Of a DNA stretch of 64,000 nucleotides, positions 4,715 through 53,172 are shown piece by piece. The stretch lies in assembly GCA_903904885.1 (NCBI GenBank), contig CAIVED010000037.1:2032-66031 (forward strand), in the 5' to 3' direction. The position numbers and the translations under genes are program-made. The DNA comes from an uncultured archaeon. Its GTDB lineage: Archaea; Nanobdellota; Nanobdellia; Woesearchaeales; CAIVOO01. Each line of letters opens with the position of its first letter. Position 1 is the stretch's first letter. Below the pieces are notes generated by a model. It saw only the letters and a list, made by a program, of their open reading frames with translations, ran no database searches and had not been told where the DNA came from.

Positions 4715-5929
4715 TCACAAAGCTTTCCCGGCAAAGCAGTTGTGCTTGTCGCGGAGGATTTTGACCTTTATCTGGCTGCCTGTCTTGGCGTCGCAGCCAA
4801 AGACATTTATGCTTCTCCCCTCGGCAGCGGCTATTTTCTCGCTGCCGTACATGCCCTCGCACATCACAGTTGCCTTCACAACATCCCCCTTGCTGAACGG
4901 CTTTGGAAGCAATTTTGCCCTGTGTATGCCGAAATCCTCAGCCTTCAGGATGAGCTTTGCCCCGTATTTCTCCTCGAGCTTTTTCAGCCTGCTGTAGAAT
5001 TCTTCCCAGGGCATCTGCTTTGCGGGCTTCCTGCCCTTGTCATACTCAAGGAAGTTTTGTATGCCCAGCTTAACATTGCCCCGGCAGTATTTCATTGCAA
5101 ATTCAACCAGTTTCTCCATCTGGCTGTCATTCCATCCATTAACCCATACGGGAGCAATAAGTACATCTGACTTTTTACCTATGTATTCTATTATTTTTTT
5201 TACATGGCCAATGTTATAGCTGCAGCCGGCCATTTTGCATGCAATATTCTCGTCGAGAGAATCCAGGGATACATTGAACCTTGTGAGCCCCGCTTCAATC
5301 AGCTGGTCTGCTTTTTCTTCAGTAAGAAAAACAGCGTTTGTGTCCATTGAAATGGCCCCGAGATTCTTTATTTTCGAAATCTCGCCTATCAGTTCTACCA
5401 ATTCAGGATAAAGCAGGGGCTCCCCGTGGGTGCCGATGTGGCAGTTCCATTCCTCCCCGATGAACTCAGCAATTTTCTTTATTTCCTGGACAAGATAATC
5501 CTGCTCTATCAAAAAATCTGTTTTCTTGCCTGAACCAGTTCCCTCGTCGATGGAGCAGTAAACGCAGTTTAAATTGCATCCTGTTACCGGCTTTACCTCA
5601 ATTACATTTGAATTCCTGTAGACTATCCCGAATGCGGTGTTGCCAATCAAAGGTATGCCTGAATTTTTATGGATGTAAACAGAGCGCTTTCCCGTAAGAA
5701 CGTTTGTAAGCTCTGAAAAATACTTTTCAACAAGAAAATTGAATTTCCTTTGGACGCTTTCCATTGAGGCATTCCTGAATGTTATGCTGTTTTTCCCGAT
5801 TTCAAAATCAGCTATTTTTCGCAGCTCATTTTTCGGGATTCTAAAATAATAGCTTTTCAGGAAAAACACCTTAATATGACCTTCCTCCTCGGAAAATTCC
5901 AGCTGTTCAAAGGTTAAGGCGGCATTCAT
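4715..5929 (-). CDS. radical SAM protein with C-terminal TRAM-like domain
   Basis: CNLNCVYC, HGEPLLY, DTNAVFL, and a C-terminal OB/TRAM-like GDVVKATV...GSQIKVKI. Confidence 0.85.
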   Translation of the reverse strand: MNAALTFEQLEFSEEEGHIKVFFLKSYYFRIPKNELRKIADFEIGKNSITFRNASMESVQRKFNFLVEKYFSELTNVLTGKRSVYIHKNSGIPLIGNTAFGIVYRNSNVIEVKPVTGCNLNCVYCSIDEGTGSGKKTDFLIEQDYLVQEIKKIAEFIGEEWNCHIGTHGEPLLYPELVELIGEISKIKNLGAISMDTNAVFLTEEKADQLIEAGLTRFNVSLDSLDENIACKMAGCSYNIGHVKKIIEYIGKKSDVLIAPVWVNGWNDSQMEKLVEFAMKYCRGNVKLGIQNFLEYDKGRKPAKQMPWEEFYSRLKKLEEKYGAKLILKAEDFGIHRAKLLPKPFSKGDVVKATVMCEGMYGSEKIAAAEGRSINVFGCDAKTGSQIKVKILRDKHNCFAGKAL

Positions 5930-16906: not shown

Positions 16907-16993
16907 TGCGCCGACCGGGATTCGAACCCGGGTCACAGCCTGTTTGCATTCTAGTTTGGCAAGGCCGCATACTGACCACTGTACTATCGGCGC
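16907..16993 (-). tRNA. tRNA-Gly(GCC) with 15-nt intron at 37/38
   Basis: Cloverleaf GCGCCGA/TCGGCGC, T-loop TTCGAAT, and BHB with TTGC/GCAA central helix. Confidence 0.92.
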
Positions 16994-16995
16994 GC

Positions 16996-17087
16996 TGGGC
17001 CCGACCGGATTCGAACCGGTGACATACACCTTTCCTGCTTCTTTTGAAAGCTGTAAGGGTGTCGTCATACCGCTAGACCACGGGCCC
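16996..17087 (-). tRNA. tRNA-Val(TAC) with 20-nt intron at 37/38
   Basis: GGGCCCG acceptor, ACACC/GGTGT anticodon stem, TTCGAAT. The BHB central helix is imperfect. Confidence 0.9.
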
Positions 17088-21494: not shown

Positions 21495-21734
21495 ATGAGC
21501 GTTGGGGAACACATACATGTATTTACAACATCAGAATGCAATTTAAACTGTAGCTATTGCTTTGGTCCGAATACGAAATATTCTGATTCCAGGCTTCCTG
21601 AGATTGCCGAGATTCTTGCACAGAATGAAGTTAAGATGGTAACCGCGGGAGGGGGAGAGCCGCGCCTGGTGCTTACATTAAAAAGCACAACCTTTAAAAA
21701 CCACCATTTTTCTTTTAAACCAATGCCCCTGTAG
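21495..21734 (+). pseudogene. truncated radical SAM gene remnant
   Basis: CNLNCSYC and GGGEP, then the frame loses similarity and runs through the tRNA-Glu promoter to a stop inside the tRNA. Confidence 0.7.
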
Positions 21735-21820
21735 TGTAGTCCGGTCAATCATGCCGCCCTTTCAATTCGGGAAACCGACAAAGCAAGGCGGCGACTCGGG
21801 TTCAAATCCCGGCGGGGGCA
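21725..21820 (+). tRNA. tRNA-Glu(TTC) with 21-nt intron at 37/38
   Basis: GCCCCTG/CGGGGGC acceptor, CCGCC/GGCGG stem, intron at 21765-21785 with CTTT/AAAG BHB helix and a GAAA tetraloop. Confidence 0.93.
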
Positions 21821-47961: not shown

Positions 47962-48085
47962 TGCGGGGGAGGAGATTCGAACTCCCGGACCCACTAAGGG
48001 ACAGGATGGCTTAAAGCCGCCAATTCAGTATTGGCTGCCCCATTTCTTAAGTCCTGCGCGTTTGACCAGACTTCGCTACCCCCGC
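47962..48085 (-). tRNA. tRNA-Leu(TAA) with 38-nt intron at 37/38
   Basis: GCGGGGG/CCCCCGC acceptor, long variable arm, intron at 48008-48045 with CTTA/TAAG BHB helix. Confidence 0.93.
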
Positions 48086-48177: not shown

Positions 48178-48247
48178 CTGGTTCTTGCATTACAACTAAT
48201 GTTGGTTCGGCTTCTTCTGCTCAATTGCCATGCAAGAAATAAATATT
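48178..48247 (+). repeat. dispersed structured intergenic element, copy 4 (5' half)
   Basis: CTGGTTCTTGCATTA-N21-CTTCTGCTCAATTGCCATGCAAGAAATAAATATT. Confidence 0.8.
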
Positions 48248-49586
48248 ATTTCTTTTTAGCGAACTGGCTCTTCTTCCACACAGGAGCGTACAATTTATGC
48301 ACTTCTTTTGAATACTTGTCAATCGCTTTCCTTACCTTCTGGTCTCTGATTGGGTCGTCCGCCCCGGGATGGGTCGGATACAGATTGAATTTCTTCTCCA
48401 TTTCCCGGCTGACTTCAGGATGGTCTATCCACTGGCAGGGCAAAAATAAATTTTCATGGTAGGGCTGCCTCGCCCTCAGCGCCTTGAAGTAATCGGAATT
48501 CAAAACGTCTTTCAATGATTTGTTTTTGATGTTGTCAACCGCCATGTGGGTGAATATGCAGGGCTCCACGTCCCCTTTTGATGTGATGTGAACATACTCT
48601 TTTCCTGCGATGCAGCCGCCGACCCAGGGCGCATCGTTCCAGAAATCCACTATGAATATCGGCTTTGTTTCCCTGAGTTTCAAATCCCGGTTGTACAAAT
48701 GCAGCCTCTGCTTCGGCGTCGGCATTAGTTTCGGGTCCGGCTTTGCGCCCACAGGCATGTAAAGGAAAAACCATCCGAGATAGGCCCCTTTTTCAATCAG
48801 GAAATTGACAAACCTGTCGCTGCTGATTTCCTCTGCATTTTTGCTTGTGACCGCCGATGAAAACCCGAATGGAATTTTGTTTCTCTTCAAAATAGCCATG
48901 GCATTCATTATTTTTTTGTAAACTCCCCTGCCTCTCCTTTCATCTGTCCTTTTTTCAAATCCCTCTATGCTGAGAATCGGCAGGGCATTTCCTGTCTTCA
49001 GCAGTTTTTTTGCAACATCCTCGGTAATGAGGGTGCTGTTGGTGTAAACCTGGAAAAAAACATCTTTGTGCTTCTCAAGAATCCTGAACAGATGCGGCCA
49101 GACAAATGGTTCCCCGCCGAGAAATGTGAAAAACGCAACCCCCATTTTTTTGCCTTCTCTTACTATCCTGTCAACAACCTCAAAAGGCAAATCATCTTCT
49201 CTTGCGTATTTCATTGCATAGCAGCCGACGCATTTCAGGTTGCATCTCATGGTCGGGCTTATCAAAACAGTTGTTGGAACAGTGCCGCCTTTTTTGAACT
49301 CCCTGTTCCTTTTTTTGTAATTCATCACCAGGCCCTGGACAATGAGGTTTTCTATCAGCTTTTCCTTGTAAATCGGAGCAACATTGTCAAGTATTCTTCT
49401 TATCAGCTTGTAGCCGACAGTATTCTTTTCAATCATCTCCCTTACGCTGATTATCGCATCCTTGCTTGCCGCAGTGCTGAACTTTTCGAGAAACCGTGTT
49501 ATATTTATCAGGGTTTTATCAGAAACATTTGTTGCCTTTTTCAGAACAGCAGTTATTGCCTTCTTTTTTATGTAGTTTATTACCAT
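48246..49586 (-). CDS. radical SAM protein (SPASM/twitch-type C-terminus)
   Basis: CNLKCVGC, LGGEP, YTNSTL, GCIAG..GDVEPCIF. Confidence 0.9.
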   Translation of the reverse strand: MVINYIKKKAITAVLKKATNVSDKTLINITRFLEKFSTAASKDAIISVREMIEKNTVGYKLIRRILDNVAPIYKEKLIENLIVQGLVMNYKKRNREFKKGGTVPTTVLISPTMRCNLKCVGCYAMKYAREDDLPFEVVDRIVREGKKMGVAFFTFLGGEPFVWPHLFRILEKHKDVFFQVYTNSTLITEDVAKKLLKTGNALPILSIEGFEKRTDERRGRGVYKKIMNAMAILKRNKIPFGFSSAVTSKNAEEISSDRFVNFLIEKGAYLGWFFLYMPVGAKPDPKLMPTPKQRLHLYNRDLKLRETKPIFIVDFWNDAPWVGGCIAGKEYVHITSKGDVEPCIFTHMAVDNIKNKSLKDVLNSDYFKALRARQPYHENLFLPCQWIDHPEVSREMEKKFNLYPTHPGADDPIRDQKVRKAIDKYSKEVHKLYAPVWKKSQFAKKK

Positions 49587-49653: not shown

Positions 49654-50154
49654 TCAGTACTTGTAAAGGTTTAGGAACGACTTTATCTGGGTTGAAAGCT
49701 CGCTTACCTCCCCTCTAAGGGTTGACAAAAACTTGTCTGTGTAGATTTTATAGAAATACTTGTCAACAATCAGCCTCAGGAAATAAATTCCGGCCTTGGT
49801 GTGCCATGCCTCCTCGTAGTCTGTCAACAGCCAGGCGTCGAAGGTTACTGTTACCCTGCCCTCATGCATTTTTTTCTTCTCGCCGTCAATCTCCACAACG
49901 GTTTCCTTCAGGCCCTCCATCTGTATGTGTATTGATATTACAAACTTGACATAGTCACTTTCCTTCCTTGCAGGCTCCAGCTTCAGCTCTATGTATTTGC
50001 CTTCGGGCTTTACGTACTCTATGCTCTCCTTCTCGGTCTTGTCATAGTTGTGCTTCTTCTGCCAGTCGTCAAGAATCTTGTAGAGCTCAAATACATTGAA
50101 AAGCCCTTCATAGCTTACAACCATCCCGCTTACTGCAATGTTTCTCTCTGCCAT
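49654..50154 (-). CDS. hypothetical protein, paralog of 50159-50683
   Basis: Full-length similarity to the upstream neighbour (YEGLFN..LYK..DW, RKESDY, EGR..TF..L.TDY, TQIK..LNL). Confidence 0.75.
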   Translation of the reverse strand: MAERNIAVSGMVVSYEGLFNVFELYKILDDWQKKHNYDKTEKESIEYVKPEGKYIELKLEPARKESDYVKFVISIHIQMEGLKETVVEIDGEKKKMHEGRVTVTFDAWLLTDYEEAWHTKAGIYFLRLIVDKYFYKIYTDKFLSTLRGEVSELSTQIKSFLNLYKY

Positions 50155-50158
50155 TTTG

Positions 50159-50683
50159 TTACCAGGCCGAATAGGCCGTTTCCATGTTCAGCGCCTTTTT
50201 GATTTGCGTATGCAGGCCATAGGCCTCTGCAACAAGATTCCCAGTCCAGAGGATTATTATTTTCTTTCTCCAGAGGGTGAACCTTATCAGGTTAAAAAGG
50301 CGCCTGTTCCACTCCGACTTGTCGAACTTTGAGCTGTAGTCAAGCACCACGTTGAATGATATGGTTATCAGCAATCTCCCTTTATTTATCTTTTGCTTTT
50401 TTCCCCCAATGACCGCCTCAACTTCAACAAGATTCCATGTTTTCAGCTCGACCTCAAGGTCGTATCTCATGAACTCGCTGGTTTTCCTGTTGGCCTTTAT
50501 GCCAAGCTCAACCTCAGTGCCTGTGCCCGTCATCTTGTGCTTGTATGTTTCAACAACCTCATACTGCATCTTCTTGAACCAGTTATGGATGATCAGGTAA
50601 ACCTTTTCATAGTCAAATTCGCCAGAATACCTTATCTCGCCAAGGACATCGCCTACCTTATCGCCCCTTTTTGAAACAACCAT
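50159..50683 (-). CDS. hypothetical protein, paralog of 49654-50154
   Basis: YSGEFD..VY..HNW, RKTSEF, KGR..TISF..LDY, TQIK..LNM. Confidence 0.75.
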   Translation of the reverse strand: MVVSKRGDKVGDVLGEIRYSGEFDYEKVYLIIHNWFKKMQYEVVETYKHKMTGTGTEVELGIKANRKTSEFMRYDLEVELKTWNLVEVEAVIGGKKQKINKGRLLITISFNVVLDYSSKFDKSEWNRRLFNLIRFTLWRKKIIILWTGNLVAEAYGLHTQIKKALNMETAYSAW

Positions 50684-50705: not shown

Positions 50706-51191
50706 TTATAAACGTTTCTGAGAATTAAATAATGCCTGCTCCTCCTTGAGGAGATTAATCTTTCTTTCCCATTCCCTCAGCTCTATCTTGTCTGCAAGGA
50801 ATTCAAACAGCTGCGGCTGGAGCTTGAGGATGTCTTTTCCTGTCAGGAAACCGACCAGCGCCTTCTTGCTCATCACAGGAAGGTGCCTTATGTTCTTGTC
50901 CCTCATTAGGATTATTGCGTCATAAATGTCCTTCTCAGGCGCGATTGTCGGGAAATCCGTCTCAGCAATTTCGCTCGCCAGAATCCTGGAAGGGTCCTTC
51001 TCCTCTGCGACAACCTTTCTTACAATGTCTTTTTCTGTCAAAAGCCCCACGAACTGGTTTGACTTCTTGACAATCAGGGTGCTGACGTGGCTCTCTGCCA
51101 TTATCTCGGCGCATTTTGCTATTGTAATGTTGTATTCCACCGAAATCGGCCTCTGGGTCATGGCATCGCAGACGAGAAATCCGGTTTTCAT
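50706..51191 (-). CDS. CBS-pair domain protein
   Basis: VCDAMT..PISV, VGLLTEKDIVRKVV, IRHLPV..VGFLTGKDIL. ATG 51191 chosen. Confidence 0.9.
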   Translation of the reverse strand: MKTGFLVCDAMTQRPISVEYNITIAKCAEIMAESHVSTLIVKKSNQFVGLLTEKDIVRKVVAEEKDPSRILASEIAETDFPTIAPEKDIYDAIILMRDKNIRHLPVMSKKALVGFLTGKDILKLQPQLFEFLADKIELREWERKINLLKEEQALFNSQKRL

Positions 51192-51249: not shown

Positions 51250-53172
51250 TCAGTAGTTAACCAGAATCTCAACATTAGAGCCGAAGATTTTCTTCAGGTC
51301 CTCAAACAGCTGCTCTTTTATGAAAACCCTGAGCGGAAGCTTCATGTCAGCAATTGCCTTTTCGTATTCCTCATAGGATGATTTTCTTATTCCTGAGATT
51401 CCGCCTTCTTTTGTAACAACCGCTTTTTGAACGGTTTTTTCAGAGGAATCAACATCATCAATTATGAACGCTTCCTTGTCAAGCAGAATCACTTCGCCGT
51501 ATTTGTCTCCGTACTTAACTCTTATCCTTGCCCTTTCCAGCTCCCTTCCCCGTTTTCTCTGCACATATTCAATCATTGCTTTTATGAATACGCCGGCAGT
51601 CTTGCTTATGTTCTGGATTTCTGTTTTTGTGAGCTTCTTTGAATCGTAATCTTTCTTGGCCTTGGCAATATCATCGAATGAGCGCAGAAGCTTCTCCGGC
51701 ATTTTTCCCGTCAGTACCAGCGCATTCTTGAACATTTTTGCCAGCTCTGCATTTTCAATTTTTTCAATGCCCTCAAGCTTTAGCACATCCCTGACAAGGG
51801 AAACTGCAGTATCGTAAATATTAACCACGTTGTCCTCTTCCTTTTTCTTTTCTATGGCAGAGAACAGTTTTTTCAGCCTTGCAAGGTACTTCTCGGCATT
51901 GTCAAGCAGCTCGTCAATTTCCTTGCCGGAAACATTTTTCTTTGTGCCGTGCTCAACATCCTTCCTTATTTTGATTACCTGCTCAAGGGTTTTCATGAAA
52001 TTCTCCTCAAACAATTTCTCCTTCTCTACAAAAATCTCCCTCATAAGTTCGGGAGTTTCTTTCGGTGTTGGCGGGGGAATCCCGTACATCATCAAAGCTG
52101 CCTGGGAAGGCGTCAGCAATGCGTAGAACAAATCCTCTATGCCTATGTCATTCAATTTGAACTGGATTCTTTTTATCAGCTGCTCCCCTGAGCTGAGGTA
52201 CATTTCAATTGCCTCTGCAGAGGGCTTTATCCTGCCCATCTTAAGCAGTTGCTTCCAGGGCATGAAAATTCCCCGGTCATAGAGCGGAACCCCGTCTCTT
52301 AGGAATGTGAATATTACCGGATGCGCCTCCTTGATGGATTCCCAGAAATCAGTAAGGATGTAAACCTGGATGTTGATTTTATTCCTTATGCCGGTCATCT
52401 CGCCTGCCTGGACTCCCATCCCGATTATTATTGCGCGCAGCTTGTCCTTCAGCTCGGCACGTGTCATTCTCTTTACATCTGTATCGTCAATTACTATGAA
52501 AACATCAATGTCAGATTCAGGCGTTGCCTTGCCCTGTACAAGCGAACCCGCAAGAACATAGGCAACTATGTATTTCTCAAATTTCTCAAGCACCATCTTC
52601 TTGTGGACTTCAGCAATTTTGATTGCAGAAAGCATTCCAAGGTCAAAAACCGGGGCGGACATTGCGATTGTCCTAAGCAAATCGTATTTTGCGTCATAGC
52701 ATGACTGCCAGACCTCTGAAAGAAGCAATGGCTGGGGAGCGAATTTTTCATCAATCTCCTTAGCGTTCTTTTCCATGATTGATGTCAATTTTTGTATCAG
52801 CTCTGCCTTGGTCATCTTTTGCGAATCAGAATCATCAATAAGCACAAGGATGTTAATCTTGTCCTTTGCCGAATTCGCCGCTTCTTCTCCCTCGAATTTC
52901 TTTATGTCATCAAGCTCTTTTTGAGTCAATGGAGGCAGAAGAGAAACGCCCATGATGTACTTGCCGAATTTTTTTACTGTTTCATTTGAGAACTTGTCAA
53001 GCTTTTCCTTTACCTGCTTGAGCTTTTCCTGAACCTCTTTCGGGATTCCTGCCTTTTCCAGCATATCTGCAGGAAGCTCCTTGCTGATTGTTTCCCTCAG
53101 CTCAGAATCAGGGGATTTGTCCTTTTCCTTGGATTTTCCCTTGTCCTTTTCATACTTAGAATACTCTGCCAT
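51250..53172 (-). CDS. nucleotidyltransferase (MNT)-HEPN fusion protein with internal duplication
   Basis: AGSLVQG..SDIDVFIVIDD (intact MNT), a preceding degenerate copy KINILVLIDD, and a HEPN-like region with RKDVEH (RX4H). Confidence 0.75.
   Translation of the reverse strand: MAEYSKYEKDKGKSKEKDKSPDSELRETISKELPADMLEKAGIPKEVQEKLKQVKEKLDKFSNETVKKFGKYIMGVSLLPPLTQKELDDIKKFEGEEAANSAKDKINILVLIDDSDSQKMTKAELIQKLTSIMEKNAKEIDEKFAPQPLLLSEVWQSCYDAKYDLLRTIAMSAPVFDLGMLSAIKIAEVHKKMVLEKFEKYIVAYVLAGSLVQGKATPESDIDVFIVIDDTDVKRMTRAELKDKLRAIIIGMGVQAGEMTGIRNKINIQVYILTDFWESIKEAHPVIFTFLRDGVPLYDRGIFMPWKQLLKMGRIKPSAEAIEMYLSSGEQLIKRIQFKLNDIGIEDLFYALLTPSQAALMMYGIPPPTPKETPELMREIFVEKEKLFEENFMKTLEQVIKIRKDVEHGTKKNVSGKEIDELLDNAEKYLARLKKLFSAIEKKKEEDNVVNIYDTAVSLVRDVLKLEGIEKIENAELAKMFKNALVLTGKMPEKLLRSFDDIAKAKKDYDSKKLTKTEIQNISKTAGVFIKAMIEYVQRKRGRELERARIRVKYGDKYGEVILLDKEAFIIDDVDSSEKTVQKAVVTKEGGISGIRKSSYEEYEKAIADMKLPLRVFIKEQLFEDLKKIFGSNVEILVNY

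What the first reader, a model, noticed from the sequence alone, without database searches (positions are those of the whole stretch)
51250..53172. Internally duplicated MNT-HEPN fusion (dead NTase + active NTase + RX4H HEPN + degenerate HEPN)
SEEN: two similar segments occur, KINILVLIDDSDSQKMTKAELIQKL and DIDVFIVIDDTDVKRMTRAELKDKL, and only the second has GS..DxD. A helical region with RKDVEH follows, then a similar helical region lacking it. KNOWN: MNT-HEPN pairs are toxin-antitoxin modules in which MNT AMPylates a Tyr next to the HEPN RX4H, and here no Tyr follows (HGT). INFERENCE: a 640-aa single-chain, possibly housekeeping RNA-processing or signalling enzyme rather than a classic TA pair.
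Basis: partly seen in the sequence, partly recalled or inferred. Interest (0 to 1): 0.65.

Follow-up and report, generated by a model that had tools for sequence, protein, structure and literature searches.

The report
Duplicated single-chain NTase–HEPN enzyme, Woesearchaeota
This 640-residue protein of Woesearchaeota/Nanoarchaeota joins a dead and a live nucleotidyltransferase domain to an intact-motif and a degenerate HEPN domain plus an unrecognised C-terminal domain, and it looks like a toxin-antitoxin module tamed into a conserved chromosomal nucleotide-transferring enzyme rather than a toxin or RNase.

Summary
ORF 51250..53172 (−) encodes 640 aa with five parts:
- N1, a catalytically dead NTase (GS→PP, DxD→KxN).
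- N2, an active-looking NTase (GS-x10-DxD).
- H1, a HEPN domain carrying R403-KDVE-H408.
- H2, a degenerate HEPN copy (KKDYDS).

Both duplications are significant in profile-profile comparison (N1~N2 E=2e-20; H1~H2 E=3e-11).

H1 matches the PF05168/UPF0332 ("class II") HEPN type (AF0298, E=6.6e-7), not the DUF86 RNase toxins with RX4HXY.

Across 150 representative clusters the NTase site is nearly invariant. R403 and H408 occur together in only 45%, while K404, E407 and Q357 are about 90% conserved.

The family is in at least 588 species-level genomes (the 80 best loci are nearly all labelled Woesearchaeota/Nanoarchaeota). It was not found on viral contigs, sits in housekeeping or metabolic neighbourhoods, and often precedes a CBS-domain gene. 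The best fold matches are two-lobed aminoglycoside nucleotidyltransferases.

Best reading: a domesticated, single-chain pseudo-(MNT2-HEPN2) nucleotidyltransferase in which H1 is the substrate-binding lobe. The acceptor is unknown. A housekeeping role is supported; an RNase role is not. It is a new variant of a known kind, of moderate interest.

The parts
51250..53172 (-). Whole gene, 640 aa plus stop: single-chain N1-N2-H1-H2-C protein
   Evidence: ORF list. More than 3755 full-length homologs.
53041..53172 (-). aa 1-44: disordered, variable Lys/Glu-rich N-terminal tail
   Evidence: pLDDT below 50 for aa 1-40. Mean pairwise identity 28% (close set) and 19% (divergent set), with variable length.
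52636..53040 (-). aa 45-179: N1, a catalytically dead copy of the minimal NTase fold. GS is replaced by invariant P80-P81 and DxD by K105-x-N107. A variable loop is inserted between strands 1 and 2.
   Evidence: hhalign N1~N2 probability 99.3%, E=2e-20, with residue equivalences. Same secondary-structure order as N2. Degenerate across the family (G75 41/84, D113 34/94).
52267..52635 (-). aa 180-302: N2, the active-looking Pol-beta-type minimal NTase. It is the most constrained domain.
   Evidence: Pfam NTP_transf_2 scores 33.1 bits against a cut-off of 21; Polbeta 28.8 against 26.9. Family profile hits MntA 5yep at E=2.5e-4. Mean pairwise identity 88% (close) and 48% (divergent).
52504..52548 (-). 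aa 209-223: catalytic motif G-S-x10-D-x-D (GSLVQGKATPESDID)
   Evidence: Translation. G209 114/114, S210 107/114, D221 109/112, D223 108/111 across representative clusters.
51838..52266 (-). aa 303-445: H1, a HEPN domain of the PF05168/UPF0332 (HEPN-T, 'class II') type. It is the second most constrained domain.
   Evidence: Family profile against PDB sequences: AF0298 (2hsb) E=6.6e-7 over the whole HEPN domain, and 9xbd_A/9xbc_A HEPN proteins. By Foldseek the whole-chain model matches 2hsb at target TM 0.80, rmsd 2.4 A; the output does not say which helical unit aligns. Q357 115/124, K404 111/124, E407 109/122.
51949..51966 (-). aa 403-408: R-K-D-V-E-H, an R-x4-H motif at the end of the third HEPN helix
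   Evidence: Translation. Helix 390-407 in the model. Near-invariant in close homologs (118/120), but R and H co-occur in only 55/122 representative clusters.
51547..51837 (-). aa 446-542: H2, a degenerate second HEPN copy. The motif reads K506-K-D-Y-D-S511 (R to K, H to S).
   Evidence: hhalign H1~H2 probability 97.2%, E=2.8e-11, with alignment. Window 51640..51660 translates to AKKDYDS. Mean pairwise identity 59% (close) and 19% (divergent).
51253..51546 (-). aa 543-640: beta-rich C-terminal domain (six strands, then alpha-beta-alpha-beta) of unassigned fold
   Evidence: Separate AlphaFold2 model with pLDDT 82, pTM 0.71. No significant match in the PDB (best E=0.38) or BFVD (best E=0.086).
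50706..51191 (-). Downstream CBS-pair protein gene, a likely operon partner (the start taken here is the internal Met; the listed ORF runs to 51275)
   Evidence: Pfam CBS E=1e-23, two repeats. Downstream on the same strand in 36-37 of 72 related loci with enough flank, within 300 nt in 26. A CBS gene is also adjacent, in divergent orientation, to the distant homolog P0149.

Best explanation
The gene encodes a domesticated, single-chain relative of the class II (PF01909 + PF05168) MNT-HEPN module. Both the NTase and the HEPN domain have been duplicated in tandem (N1-N2-H1-H2), so one polypeptide plausibly mimics a 2:2 MNT:HEPN assembly.

Only one NTase (N2, GS-x10-DxD) keeps catalytic residues. 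I infer that it binds Mg-NTP, most likely ATP, and transfers the NMP to a hydroxyl acceptor. H1 packs against N2 as the substrate-binding or catalytic-assist lobe, as the helical C-terminal domains do in kanamycin, streptomycin and spectinomycin nucleotidyltransferases and in GlnE/GlnD. It contributes the conserved Q357, K404 and E407, plus R403/H408 in the Woesearchaeal clade.

N1 and H2 are pseudo-domains that stand in for the second protomers as scaffolds. The orphan C-terminal domain and the charged N-tail probably recruit the acceptor.

The protein is a chromosomal, vertically inherited, probably single-copy gene of Woesearchaeota/Nanoarchaeota. It is not a toxin-antitoxin or defence module.

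What is shown: the domain architecture, the two duplications, the conservation pattern, the phyletic spread and the gene context. What is inferred: NTase activity, the role of H1, and the pseudo-tetramer geometry.

My most likely guess for the acceptor, at roughly one chance in three, is a protein side chain. That would be regulatory AMPylation of the enzyme itself or of a partner, possibly coupled to the adjacent adenosine-nucleotide-sensing CBS protein.
For: Architecture and duplications.

NTase-2: passes the Pfam cut-offs, and its catalytic residues are 94-100% conserved in 150 representative clusters.

H1 as HEPN: the family profile hits AF0298/UPF0332 at E=6.6e-7 and two other solved HEPN proteins. 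By Foldseek the whole model matches 2hsb at TM 0.80.

Two-lobed enzyme: the best whole-chain fold matches are two-lobed NTases. AAD(9) 6xz0 scores E=1.2e-4, followed by KNTase 1kny, AadA and HalB, each over about 280 aligned columns.

Constraint gradient: N2 > H1 >> N1, H2, C.

The R/H dyad is dispensable. It is present in only 55 of 122 clusters, yet 43 of the 49 clusters lacking it keep GS...DxD. K404, E407 and Q357 are about 90% conserved.

Housekeeping character:
- More than 3755 homologs at 60-89% identity.
- At least 588 species-level genomes, with each of the 80 best loci on a different contig.
- No relative on 2.9 million viral contigs.
- Neighbours are PFOR subunits, a P-type ATPase and a radical-SAM enzyme in the window, and EF-1alpha, S10, S17e, L35Ae, Alba, Trm1 and TFIIB in distant homologs' loci.
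- Only weak generic MNT hits in PADLOC.

Literature: HEPN domains fused to MNTs typically lack the RNase residues and act as substrate-binding or regulatory lobes of domesticated TA modules (PMC3710099). Class II HEPNs lack the RNase motif and are uncharacterised (PMC7641770).
Against: No biochemical evidence exists for any member.

The inter-domain geometry is uncertain. The full model has pTM 0.51 and mean pLDDT 74, the Foldseek E-values are only about 1e-4, and I could not read coordinates to measure how close the N2 active site is to the H1 motif.

Within the Woesearchaeal clade that holds this window, R403 and H408 are essentially invariant, so a clade-specific RNase activity cannot be excluded.

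The acceptor is a guess. The CBS adjacency holds in about half of the related loci and could partly reflect inherited synteny.

'Core' and 'single copy' are inferred from loci, not from whole-genome presence/absence tables.
Confidence: 0.6

Rival explanations
1. It is a self-restrained HEPN ribonuclease, that is, a housekeeping RNA-processing enzyme or a fused toxin-antitoxin like FhepTA. H1 (R403/H408), possibly paired with H2 or with H1 of a second chain, would cleave RNA. N2 would switch it off by AMPylation or by blocking dimerisation.
For: R-x4-H lies at the canonical position at the end of HEPN helix 3 and is kept in 118 of 120 close homologs. The whole-chain model also matches a HEPN toxin chain, 7ae9_G. 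Fused MNT-HEPN proteins with self-oligoAMPylation exist (PMC13000451). H1 and H2 are mildly basic (pI 8.7 and 9.3).
Against: R and H co-occur in only 45% of representative clusters, while the rest of the protein, the NTase site included, stays conserved. The substitutions are aromatic (R to Y/F/W, H to Y), which is not what a conserved catalytic dyad would tolerate.

H1 belongs to the PF05168/class II type, which lacks RX4HXY and has no demonstrated RNase activity (PMC7641770). There is no Tyr at H+2 (H-G-T). From general knowledge, HEPN RNase sites are normally composites of two R-x4-H motifs, and here the in-chain partner H2 has K...S.

The distribution and context are unlike TA modules.
Confidence: 0.2
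2. It is a signal-nucleotide synthase. N2 would make a linear or cyclic oligonucleotide, or another nucleotide second messenger, that is read by the adjacent CBS-domain protein, by analogy with HalB or CD-NTase type enzymes.
For: There is structural similarity to Hailong HalB, an NTase plus helical domain that makes oligodeoxyadenylate (E about 5e-3), and a weak NCBIfam HalB hit. A CBS-pair gene is the only strongly recurrent neighbour. From general knowledge, CBS pairs bind adenosine-containing ligands.
Against: No effector gene or defence-island context is present. The HalB similarity is weaker than that to ANT enzymes and is mostly the shared NTase fold. The CBS neighbour is missing from half the loci. 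Nothing separates this from simple regulation of the enzyme by energy charge.
Confidence: 0.1
3. It modifies a small molecule or an RNA 3' end. That would make it an ANT-like small-molecule nucleotidyltransferase, or a tailing enzyme acting on tRNA or rRNA.
For: The top fold matches are small-molecule ANTs. There are weak palm-domain hits to the poly(A)-polymerase-like PF22600 in 20 of 30 members. Distant homologs sit among translation and tRNA-modification genes.
Against: NCBIfam ANT models score far below their cut-offs (31.5 bits against 340). No CCA-adding or poly(A)-polymerase structure appears among the top 50 fold matches. No recognisable RNA-binding domain was found, and the C-terminal domain has no match.
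Confidence: 0.1

Closest known systems
Class II HEPN/MNT gene pairs (PF05168 HEPN + PF01909 MNT; e.g. the UPF0332 protein AF0298, PDB 2hsb)
   Same: The two domain families are the same. H1 aligns over the whole AF0298 HEPN domain (E=6.6e-7), with R-K-D-x-E-H-G matching L-R-E-E-S-D-Y-G. N2 carries GS-x10-DxD like the MNT partners.
   Different: Here there is one polypeptide, not two genes. Both domains are duplicated, with one copy of each degenerate. The class II Tyr position holds His (Tyr in 14 of 122 relatives). There is an extra C-terminal domain. The gene is conserved and not on viral contigs, whereas the pairs are abundant and multi-copy. Class II pairs are themselves biochemically uncharacterised (PMC7641770).
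[quoted passage not shown]
   Same: Both have an MNT-type NTase next to a HEPN domain with an R-x4-H motif, and FhepTA is also a single chain (PMC13000451). The family profile hits MntA 5yep at E=2.5e-4.
   Different: Class I HEPNs are DUF86/NTase_sub_bind with RX4HXY and an AMPylated Tyr. Here the HEPN is the PF05168 type, reads H-G-T with no Tyr, and R/H are not conserved family-wide. FhepTA is 276 aa, unduplicated and carried by prophages or islands. This protein is 640 aa, duplicated, and its family was not found on viral contigs.
Two-domain aminoglycoside nucleotidyltransferases (KNTase/ANT(4'), AadA/ANT(3'')(9), AAD(9))
   Same: These are the best whole-chain fold matches: an N-terminal Pol-beta NTase plus a helical HEPN-related substrate-binding domain, over about 280 aligned columns at E=1e-4 to 1e-2. 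From general knowledge, KNTase works as a homodimer whose two chains share each active site, which the N1-N2-H1-H2 chain may imitate.
   Different: Sequence identity is 12-15%, and NCBIfam ANT models score about one tenth of their cut-offs. The domain order is N-N-H-H in one chain rather than an (N-H)2 dimer. The hosts are DPANN archaea with no resistance-gene context.
GlnE/GlnD and DUF294-type protein nucleotidyltransferases
   Same: Each is an NTase with a HEPN-clan helical substrate-binding domain that modifies protein Tyr. GlnE also contains two NTase units. From general Pfam knowledge, DUF294 proteins fuse CBS pairs to the NTase, which parallels the CBS gene next to this one. There are weak DUF294 hits in 11 of 30 members (best E=8.5e-4).
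   Different: No hit reaches a family threshold. The domain order differs (GlnE is N-H-N-H). There is no glutamine-synthetase or PII context.

Membership tests
Pol-beta-like minimal nucleotidyltransferase (PF01909 / PF18765) | The Pfam model is matched above its gathering score | tested here: met
   NTP_transf_2 scores 33.1 bits against 21, and Polbeta 28.8 against 26.9, at aa 192-248.
Pol-beta-like minimal nucleotidyltransferase (PF01909 / PF18765) | The catalytic motif hG[GS]-x9-13-Dh[DE]h is present and conserved | tested here: met
   G209-S210-x10-D221-I-D223. These residues are 94-100% conserved in 150 representative clusters. The N1 copy fails this feature (PP and K-x-N).
HEPN superfamily, PF05168 / UPF0332 (HEPN-T) type | A four-helix up-down bundle similar to solved HEPN domains | tested here: met
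   The model has helices 319-338, 344-363, 390-407 and 416 onward. By Foldseek the whole model matches 2hsb at target TM 0.80, rmsd 2.4 A. The family profile matches 2hsb at E=6.6e-7 over chain residues 9-124.
HEPN superfamily, PF05168 / UPF0332 (HEPN-T) type | The Pfam HEPN model is matched above its gathering score by the protein itself | tested here: not met
   The window protein has no PF05168 hit. Its only HEPN hit is HEPN_SAV_6107 at E=0.26. PF05168 is hit by 4 of 30 divergent relatives, best E=8.5e-4.
HEPN superfamily, PF05168 / UPF0332 (HEPN-T) type | An Rx4-6H motif at the end of helix 3, conserved as a catalytic dyad | tested here: inconclusive
   R403...H408 is present in the window protein and in 118 of 120 close homologs. 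Across the family R is 72/124, H is 92/122, and both occur together in only 55/122.
[quoted passage not shown] | The HEPN is of the DUF86 / NTase_sub_bind type with an RX4HXY motif, where Tyr is the AMP acceptor | tested here: not met
   The motif reads R-K-D-V-E-H-G-T, with no Tyr at H+2. The HEPN aligns with the PF05168 type. The class definition is from PMC7641770.
[quoted passage not shown] | A patchy, mobile, often multi-copy distribution on islands or prophages | tested here: not met
   The family is in at least 588 species genomes, with the 80 best loci each on a different contig. It was not found on viral contigs. Its neighbours are housekeeping genes.
[quoted passage not shown] | The HEPN moiety is toxic, and the toxicity is neutralised by MNT-dependent AMPylation | not testable with these tools
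   This needs expression and toxicity assays.
[quoted passage not shown] | The two domain families occur together | tested here: met
[quoted passage not shown] | Two separate adjacent genes, with the HEPN bearing a conserved Tyr in the motif | tested here: not met
   The protein is a single chain with duplicated domains. The Tyr position holds His408, and Tyr appears there in only 14 of 122 relatives.
Aminoglycoside nucleotidyltransferases (ANT(4'), ANT(9), ANT(3'')) | A two-lobed NTase plus helical-domain fold | tested here: met
   These are the top Foldseek hits: 6xz0 at E=1.2e-4, then 1kny and 5lpa, with target TM 0.48-0.56 over about 285 columns. The model is of moderate confidence.
Aminoglycoside nucleotidyltransferases (ANT(4'), ANT(9), ANT(3'')) | An NCBIfam ANT family model is matched above its cut-off | tested here: not met
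   ANT_9 scores 31.5 bits against a cut-off of 340, and the other ANT models 12-17 bits against 193-505. Only the NTase motif region is matched.

The most novel reading that the evidence does not exclude
A former class II MNT-HEPN toxin-antitoxin module was duplicated, fused into one pseudo-heterotetrameric chain and fixed as a core, possibly essential, regulatory AMPylase of genome-reduced Woesearchaeota/Nanoarchaeota. It would work with a CBS-domain energy sensor and use an orphan-fold C-terminal domain to pick its target. If so, it would give the first function for the uncharacterised class II HEPN/MNT lineage and a clear case of a selfish module becoming housekeeping machinery.
Probability: 0.25. 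Interest if true: 0.65.

Novelty: new variant of a known kind. Interest (0 to 1): 0.45.

Why it matters
MNT-HEPN modules are among the most abundant predicted toxin-antitoxin systems in archaea, yet the archaeal-dominant class II type has no known biochemistry (PMC7641770).

This family is a large, strongly conserved derivative of that type. It has more than 3755 homologs and occurs in at least 588 species-level genomes. Its conservation pattern points to what is functionally important: the NTase site plus K404, E407 and Q357 of HEPN-1, not the R/H dyad.

It also offers a natural single-chain model of how MNT and HEPN subunits assemble. If the census confirms it as a core gene, it adds a candidate nucleotidylation-based regulatory enzyme to the poorly understood physiology of DPANN archaea.

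It is not a surprise in kind. Domestication of MNT-HEPN into two-lobed transferases was already proposed in PMC3710099.

Tried and rejected
- phmmer of the single protein against PDB sequences found nothing. Only the family profile worked.
- The C-terminal domain was modelled separately (pLDDT 82) and searched against the PDB and BFVD. No significant match, so no functional clue.
- The PADLOC defence library gave only weak generic MNT-domain hits, so a known defence system was rejected.
- Cluster look-ups for ten divergent relatives returned no organism names, so the taxonomy of the deep branches stays unresolved.
- The TPR-fused relatives (1083-1340 aa) add only protein-interaction repeats. 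One sits beside a Trypco1 gene, suggesting that branch may be conflict-related, but this does not carry over to the Woesearchaeal form.
- Literature searches for this architecture in Woesearchaeota, and for class II characterisation, returned nothing.
- Sequencing runs holding the locus are DNA-only freshwater sediment metagenomes, so there is no expression evidence.
- A CCA-adding or poly(A)-polymerase identity was considered and rejected. No such structure appears among the top 50 fold matches, and the PF22600 hits are below threshold.
Full report
**Observation**

The window carries one uninterrupted 640-codon ORF at 51250..53172 on the minus strand. Only the second unit has G209-S210-x10-D221-I-D223 (window 52504..52548 translates to GSLVQGKATPESDID). 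RKDVEH is aa 403-408 (window 51949..51966).

**Are the repeats more than chance?**

Pairwise blastp of aa 55-190 against aa 185-335 gives 28% identity over 121 residues, E=2.6e-11. The two helical regions match only weakly at this level (E=0.013).

I then cut sub-alignments out of the family alignments and compared profiles:
- N1 (aa 45-179) against N2 (aa 180-302): 99.3% probability, E=2e-20.
- H1 (aa 303-445) against H2 (aa 446-542): 97.2% probability, E=2.8e-11 with the divergent alignment.
- All six cross-domain controls: 7% probability or less.

The profile alignments give these residue equivalences:
- In N1 the G-S is replaced by P80-P81, which is invariant among close homologs.
- In N1 the D-x-D is replaced by K105-x-N107.
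- In H2, R-K-D-V-E-H-G becomes K-K-D-Y-D-S-K.

An AlphaFold2 model built with 30 homologs (mean pLDDT 74, pTM 0.51) shows two alpha/beta units of identical secondary-structure order (aa 45-177 and 180-299). Nine helices follow (aa 303-541), then a beta-rich domain (aa 543-640). The first 40 residues are disordered.

**Domain identities**

- N2 passes the Pfam thresholds for NTP_transf_2 and Polbeta.
- The protein alone has no significant HEPN hit (HEPN_SAV_6107, E=0.26).
- A profile of 30 divergent family members does hit PDB sequences. AF0298, a UPF0332/HEPN protein (2hsb), scores E=6.6e-7 over its whole length. Two further HEPN proteins (9xbd_A, 9xbc_A) and the MntA antitoxin over N2 also score.
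- By fold, the whole chain best matches two-lobed aminoglycoside nucleotidyltransferases: AAD(9) 6xz0 at E=1.2e-4, then KNTase and AadA, over about 280 columns. Hailong HalB, a HEPN toxin chain, 2hsb (target TM 0.80, rmsd 2.4 A) and MNT antitoxins follow.
- The C-terminal domain, modelled alone (pLDDT 82), has no significant match in the PDB or BFVD. Its fold is unassigned.

**Which kind of HEPN?**

In the residue alignment, the family's l-R-K-D-l-E-H-G pairs with D-L-R-E-E-S-D-Y-G of AF0298 and D-L-R-N-R-S-D-Y-D of 9xbd_A. This is the PF05168 type.

Yao et al. (PMC7641770) call PF05168/PF01909 pairs "class II". They note that these lack the RX4HXY RNase motif, carry a conserved Tyr, predominate in archaea, and have had no biochemical study. 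Class I (DUF86 or NTase_sub_bind, with RX4HXY) are the proven RNase toxins neutralised by Tyr oligo-AMPylation.

**Family-wide conservation**

The word-indexed search found more than 3755 homologs. The best 120 are all about 600-650 aa and 60-89% identical, and are labelled Woesearchaeota/Nanoarchaeota where a name exists. JGI calls them "UPF0332 family / predicted nucleotidyltransferase". The exhaustive search of cluster representatives found 728 clusters at E<=1e-3 and 189 at E<=1e-30, down to about 27% identity.

Among close homologs, GS, DxD and R-K-x-x-E-H-G are invariant or nearly so. Across 150 representative clusters aligned to the query:

| Position | Conserved in |
|---|---|
| G209 | 114/114 |
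| S210 | 107/114 |
| D221 | 109/112 |
| D223 | 108/111 |
| D230 | 110/112 |
| Q357 | 115/124 |
| K404 | 111/124 |
| E407 | 109/122 |
| R403 | 72/124 (replaced by Y 28, F 6, H 5, W 3) |
| H408 | 92/122 (replaced by Y 14) |

R and H occur together in 55 of 122 clusters. Of the 49 clusters without the dyad that can be scored at the NTase site, 43 still have the complete GS...DxD set.

Mean pairwise identity per domain, in the close and divergent sets respectively:

| Domain | Close set | Divergent set |
|---|---|---|
| N2 | 88% | 48% |
| H1 | 71% | 38% |
| N1 | 62% | 24% |
| C | 63% | 22% |
| H2 | 59% | 19% |

The catalytic NTase and the first HEPN therefore form the constrained core. What is constrained in H1 is not the RNase dyad.

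**Distribution and context**

The 80 best loci each lie on a different contig. Almost all are labelled Woesearchaeota or Nanoarchaeota, or carry placeholder names.
- No relative was found on 2.9 million viral contigs.
- An ORF clustering of the 80 loci found only two recurrent neighbours. One is a CBS-pair gene downstream on the same strand, in 36-37 of the 72 loci with enough flank and within 300 nt in 26. The other is a family of about 170-aa proteins further downstream, in 15 loci. The upstream side is variable.
- In the window the CBS gene (50706..51191) starts about 56 nt after the stop codon. The other neighbours are a radical-SAM/SPASM enzyme, a P-type cation ATPase, a rubrerythrin-like protein and PFOR subunits.
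- Distant homologs sit among EF-1alpha, S10, S17e, L35Ae, Alba, SpoU, Trm1 and TFIIB genes. The short-N1 form has an M50 peptidase plus PRC-barrel pair downstream, and in one case a divergently oriented CBS gene upstream.
- PADLOC gives only weak generic MNT hits.
- Nothing here resembles a toxin-antitoxin or defence island.

**Mechanism**

Anantharaman et al. (PMC3710099) reported that PF05168-type HEPN domains occur both stand-alone and fused to MNT. They also noted that HEPN domains fused to MNTs within multidomain proteins typically lack the RNase residues. They proposed that such proteins are domesticated TA modules in which HEPN became the substrate-binding or regulatory lobe, as in KNTase, GlnE/GlnD and DrrA.

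The present family fits that scenario, with an added twist. Both domains were duplicated in tandem to give N1-N2-H1-H2, and one copy of each decayed. The single chain therefore plausibly imitates a 2:2 MNT:HEPN assembly, a stoichiometry reported for a class I pair (PMC11586414), but with one active site.

I infer the following. N2 binds Mg-NTP. H1 closes the cleft and supplies Q357, K404 and E407, plus R403/H408 in this clade, for binding the acceptor or the phosphates. N1 and H2 act as scaffolds. The orphan C-domain and the charged tail help recruit the acceptor.

The acceptor is not determined. A protein hydroxyl (regulatory AMPylation, possibly involving the CBS protein) is my first guess. 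It rests on the MntA/GlnE/DrrA precedents, on weak DUF294 similarity in 11 of 30 members, and on the CBS fusion in DUF294 proteins, which I know from general Pfam knowledge. An RNA 3' end, a small molecule or a signal nucleotide remain possible.

**Rivals**

The main rival is a self-restrained HEPN RNase. It is supported by the invariance of R403/H408 in the Woesearchaeal clade. Several points weigh against it:
- The dyad is lost in more than half of the family.
- H1 has class II identity.
- There is no acceptor Tyr.
- The in-chain partner H2 lacks a second R-x4-H.
- The gene context is unlike that of TA modules.

It cannot be excluded for this clade without an assay.

**Limits**

- There is no biochemistry and no expression data. 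The only runs that hold the locus are DNA from freshwater sediment metagenomes.
- The inter-domain geometry rests on a moderate-confidence model, and I could not read its coordinates.
- The taxonomy of the deep branches is unresolved.
- "Core" and "single copy" are inferred from loci rather than from a genome-wide census.

**Verdict**

The domain parse and the "not a classic TA pair" inference are supported, but the RNase/RX4H emphasis is not supported family-wide. The protein is a new variant of a known kind: a duplicated, single-chain, domesticated class II MNT-HEPN nucleotidyltransferase of DPANN archaea. It is of moderate interest, mainly as an entry point to the uncharacterised class II lineage.

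Noticed in passing
window 49654..50154 (-) and 50159..50683 (-): Two tandem paralogous ORFs of 166 and 174 aa have no Pfam hit and no convincing PADLOC hit. Relatives recur downstream of the NTase-HEPN gene in 15 of 80 related loci, usually as 2-3 tandem copies. Their function is unknown.
   Followed up: partly
window 51253..51546 (-), aa 543-640 of the protein: The C-terminal beta-rich domain models confidently (pLDDT 82, pTM 0.71) but has no significant structural match in the PDB or BFVD. It may be an undescribed small fold.
   Followed up: yes
window 16907..17087 (-), 21725..21820 (+), 47962..48085 (-): Rfam finds four tRNA genes of 87-124 nt, long enough to suggest archaeal introns, and two of them are in tandem. 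ARAGORN reports only two and cannot name one anticodon.
   Followed up: no
relatives P0183, P0186, P0193, P0197, P0199, P0214, P0217, P0236 (not in the window): A branch of the family is fused to long N-terminal TPR arrays (1083-1340 aa). P0217 lies next to a Trypco1-domain gene, which from general knowledge is a conflict-system marker. That branch may have a different, conflict-related role.
   Followed up: partly
L083:5128-5955 (+): In the locus of the distant homolog P0147, a second 275-aa NTP_transf_2 gene sits directly upstream of the NTase-HEPN gene. L35Ae, Trm1 and TFIIB genes are nearby.
   Followed up: no
L081:7653-8663 and L084:7665-8752: The short-N1 (about 550 aa) subfamily shares a conserved downstream pair, an M50 peptidase-like gene and a PRC-barrel gene, in two independent contigs. 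L084 also has a CBS gene divergently upstream (5500-5928).
   Followed up: partly
L021 (JAFCCF010000027.1) and many loci titled 'uncultured Methanosarcinales archaeon': Contigs labelled Aminicenantes bacterium or Methanosarcinales carry a gene 60-64% identical to this Woesearchaeal protein. The labels are probably placeholder names or mis-binned contigs.
   Followed up: no
window 48246..49586 (-): A radical-SAM/SPASM-domain enzyme (446 aa) lies downstream of the small paralogue pair. It was not found in any of the 80 related loci.
   Followed up: no
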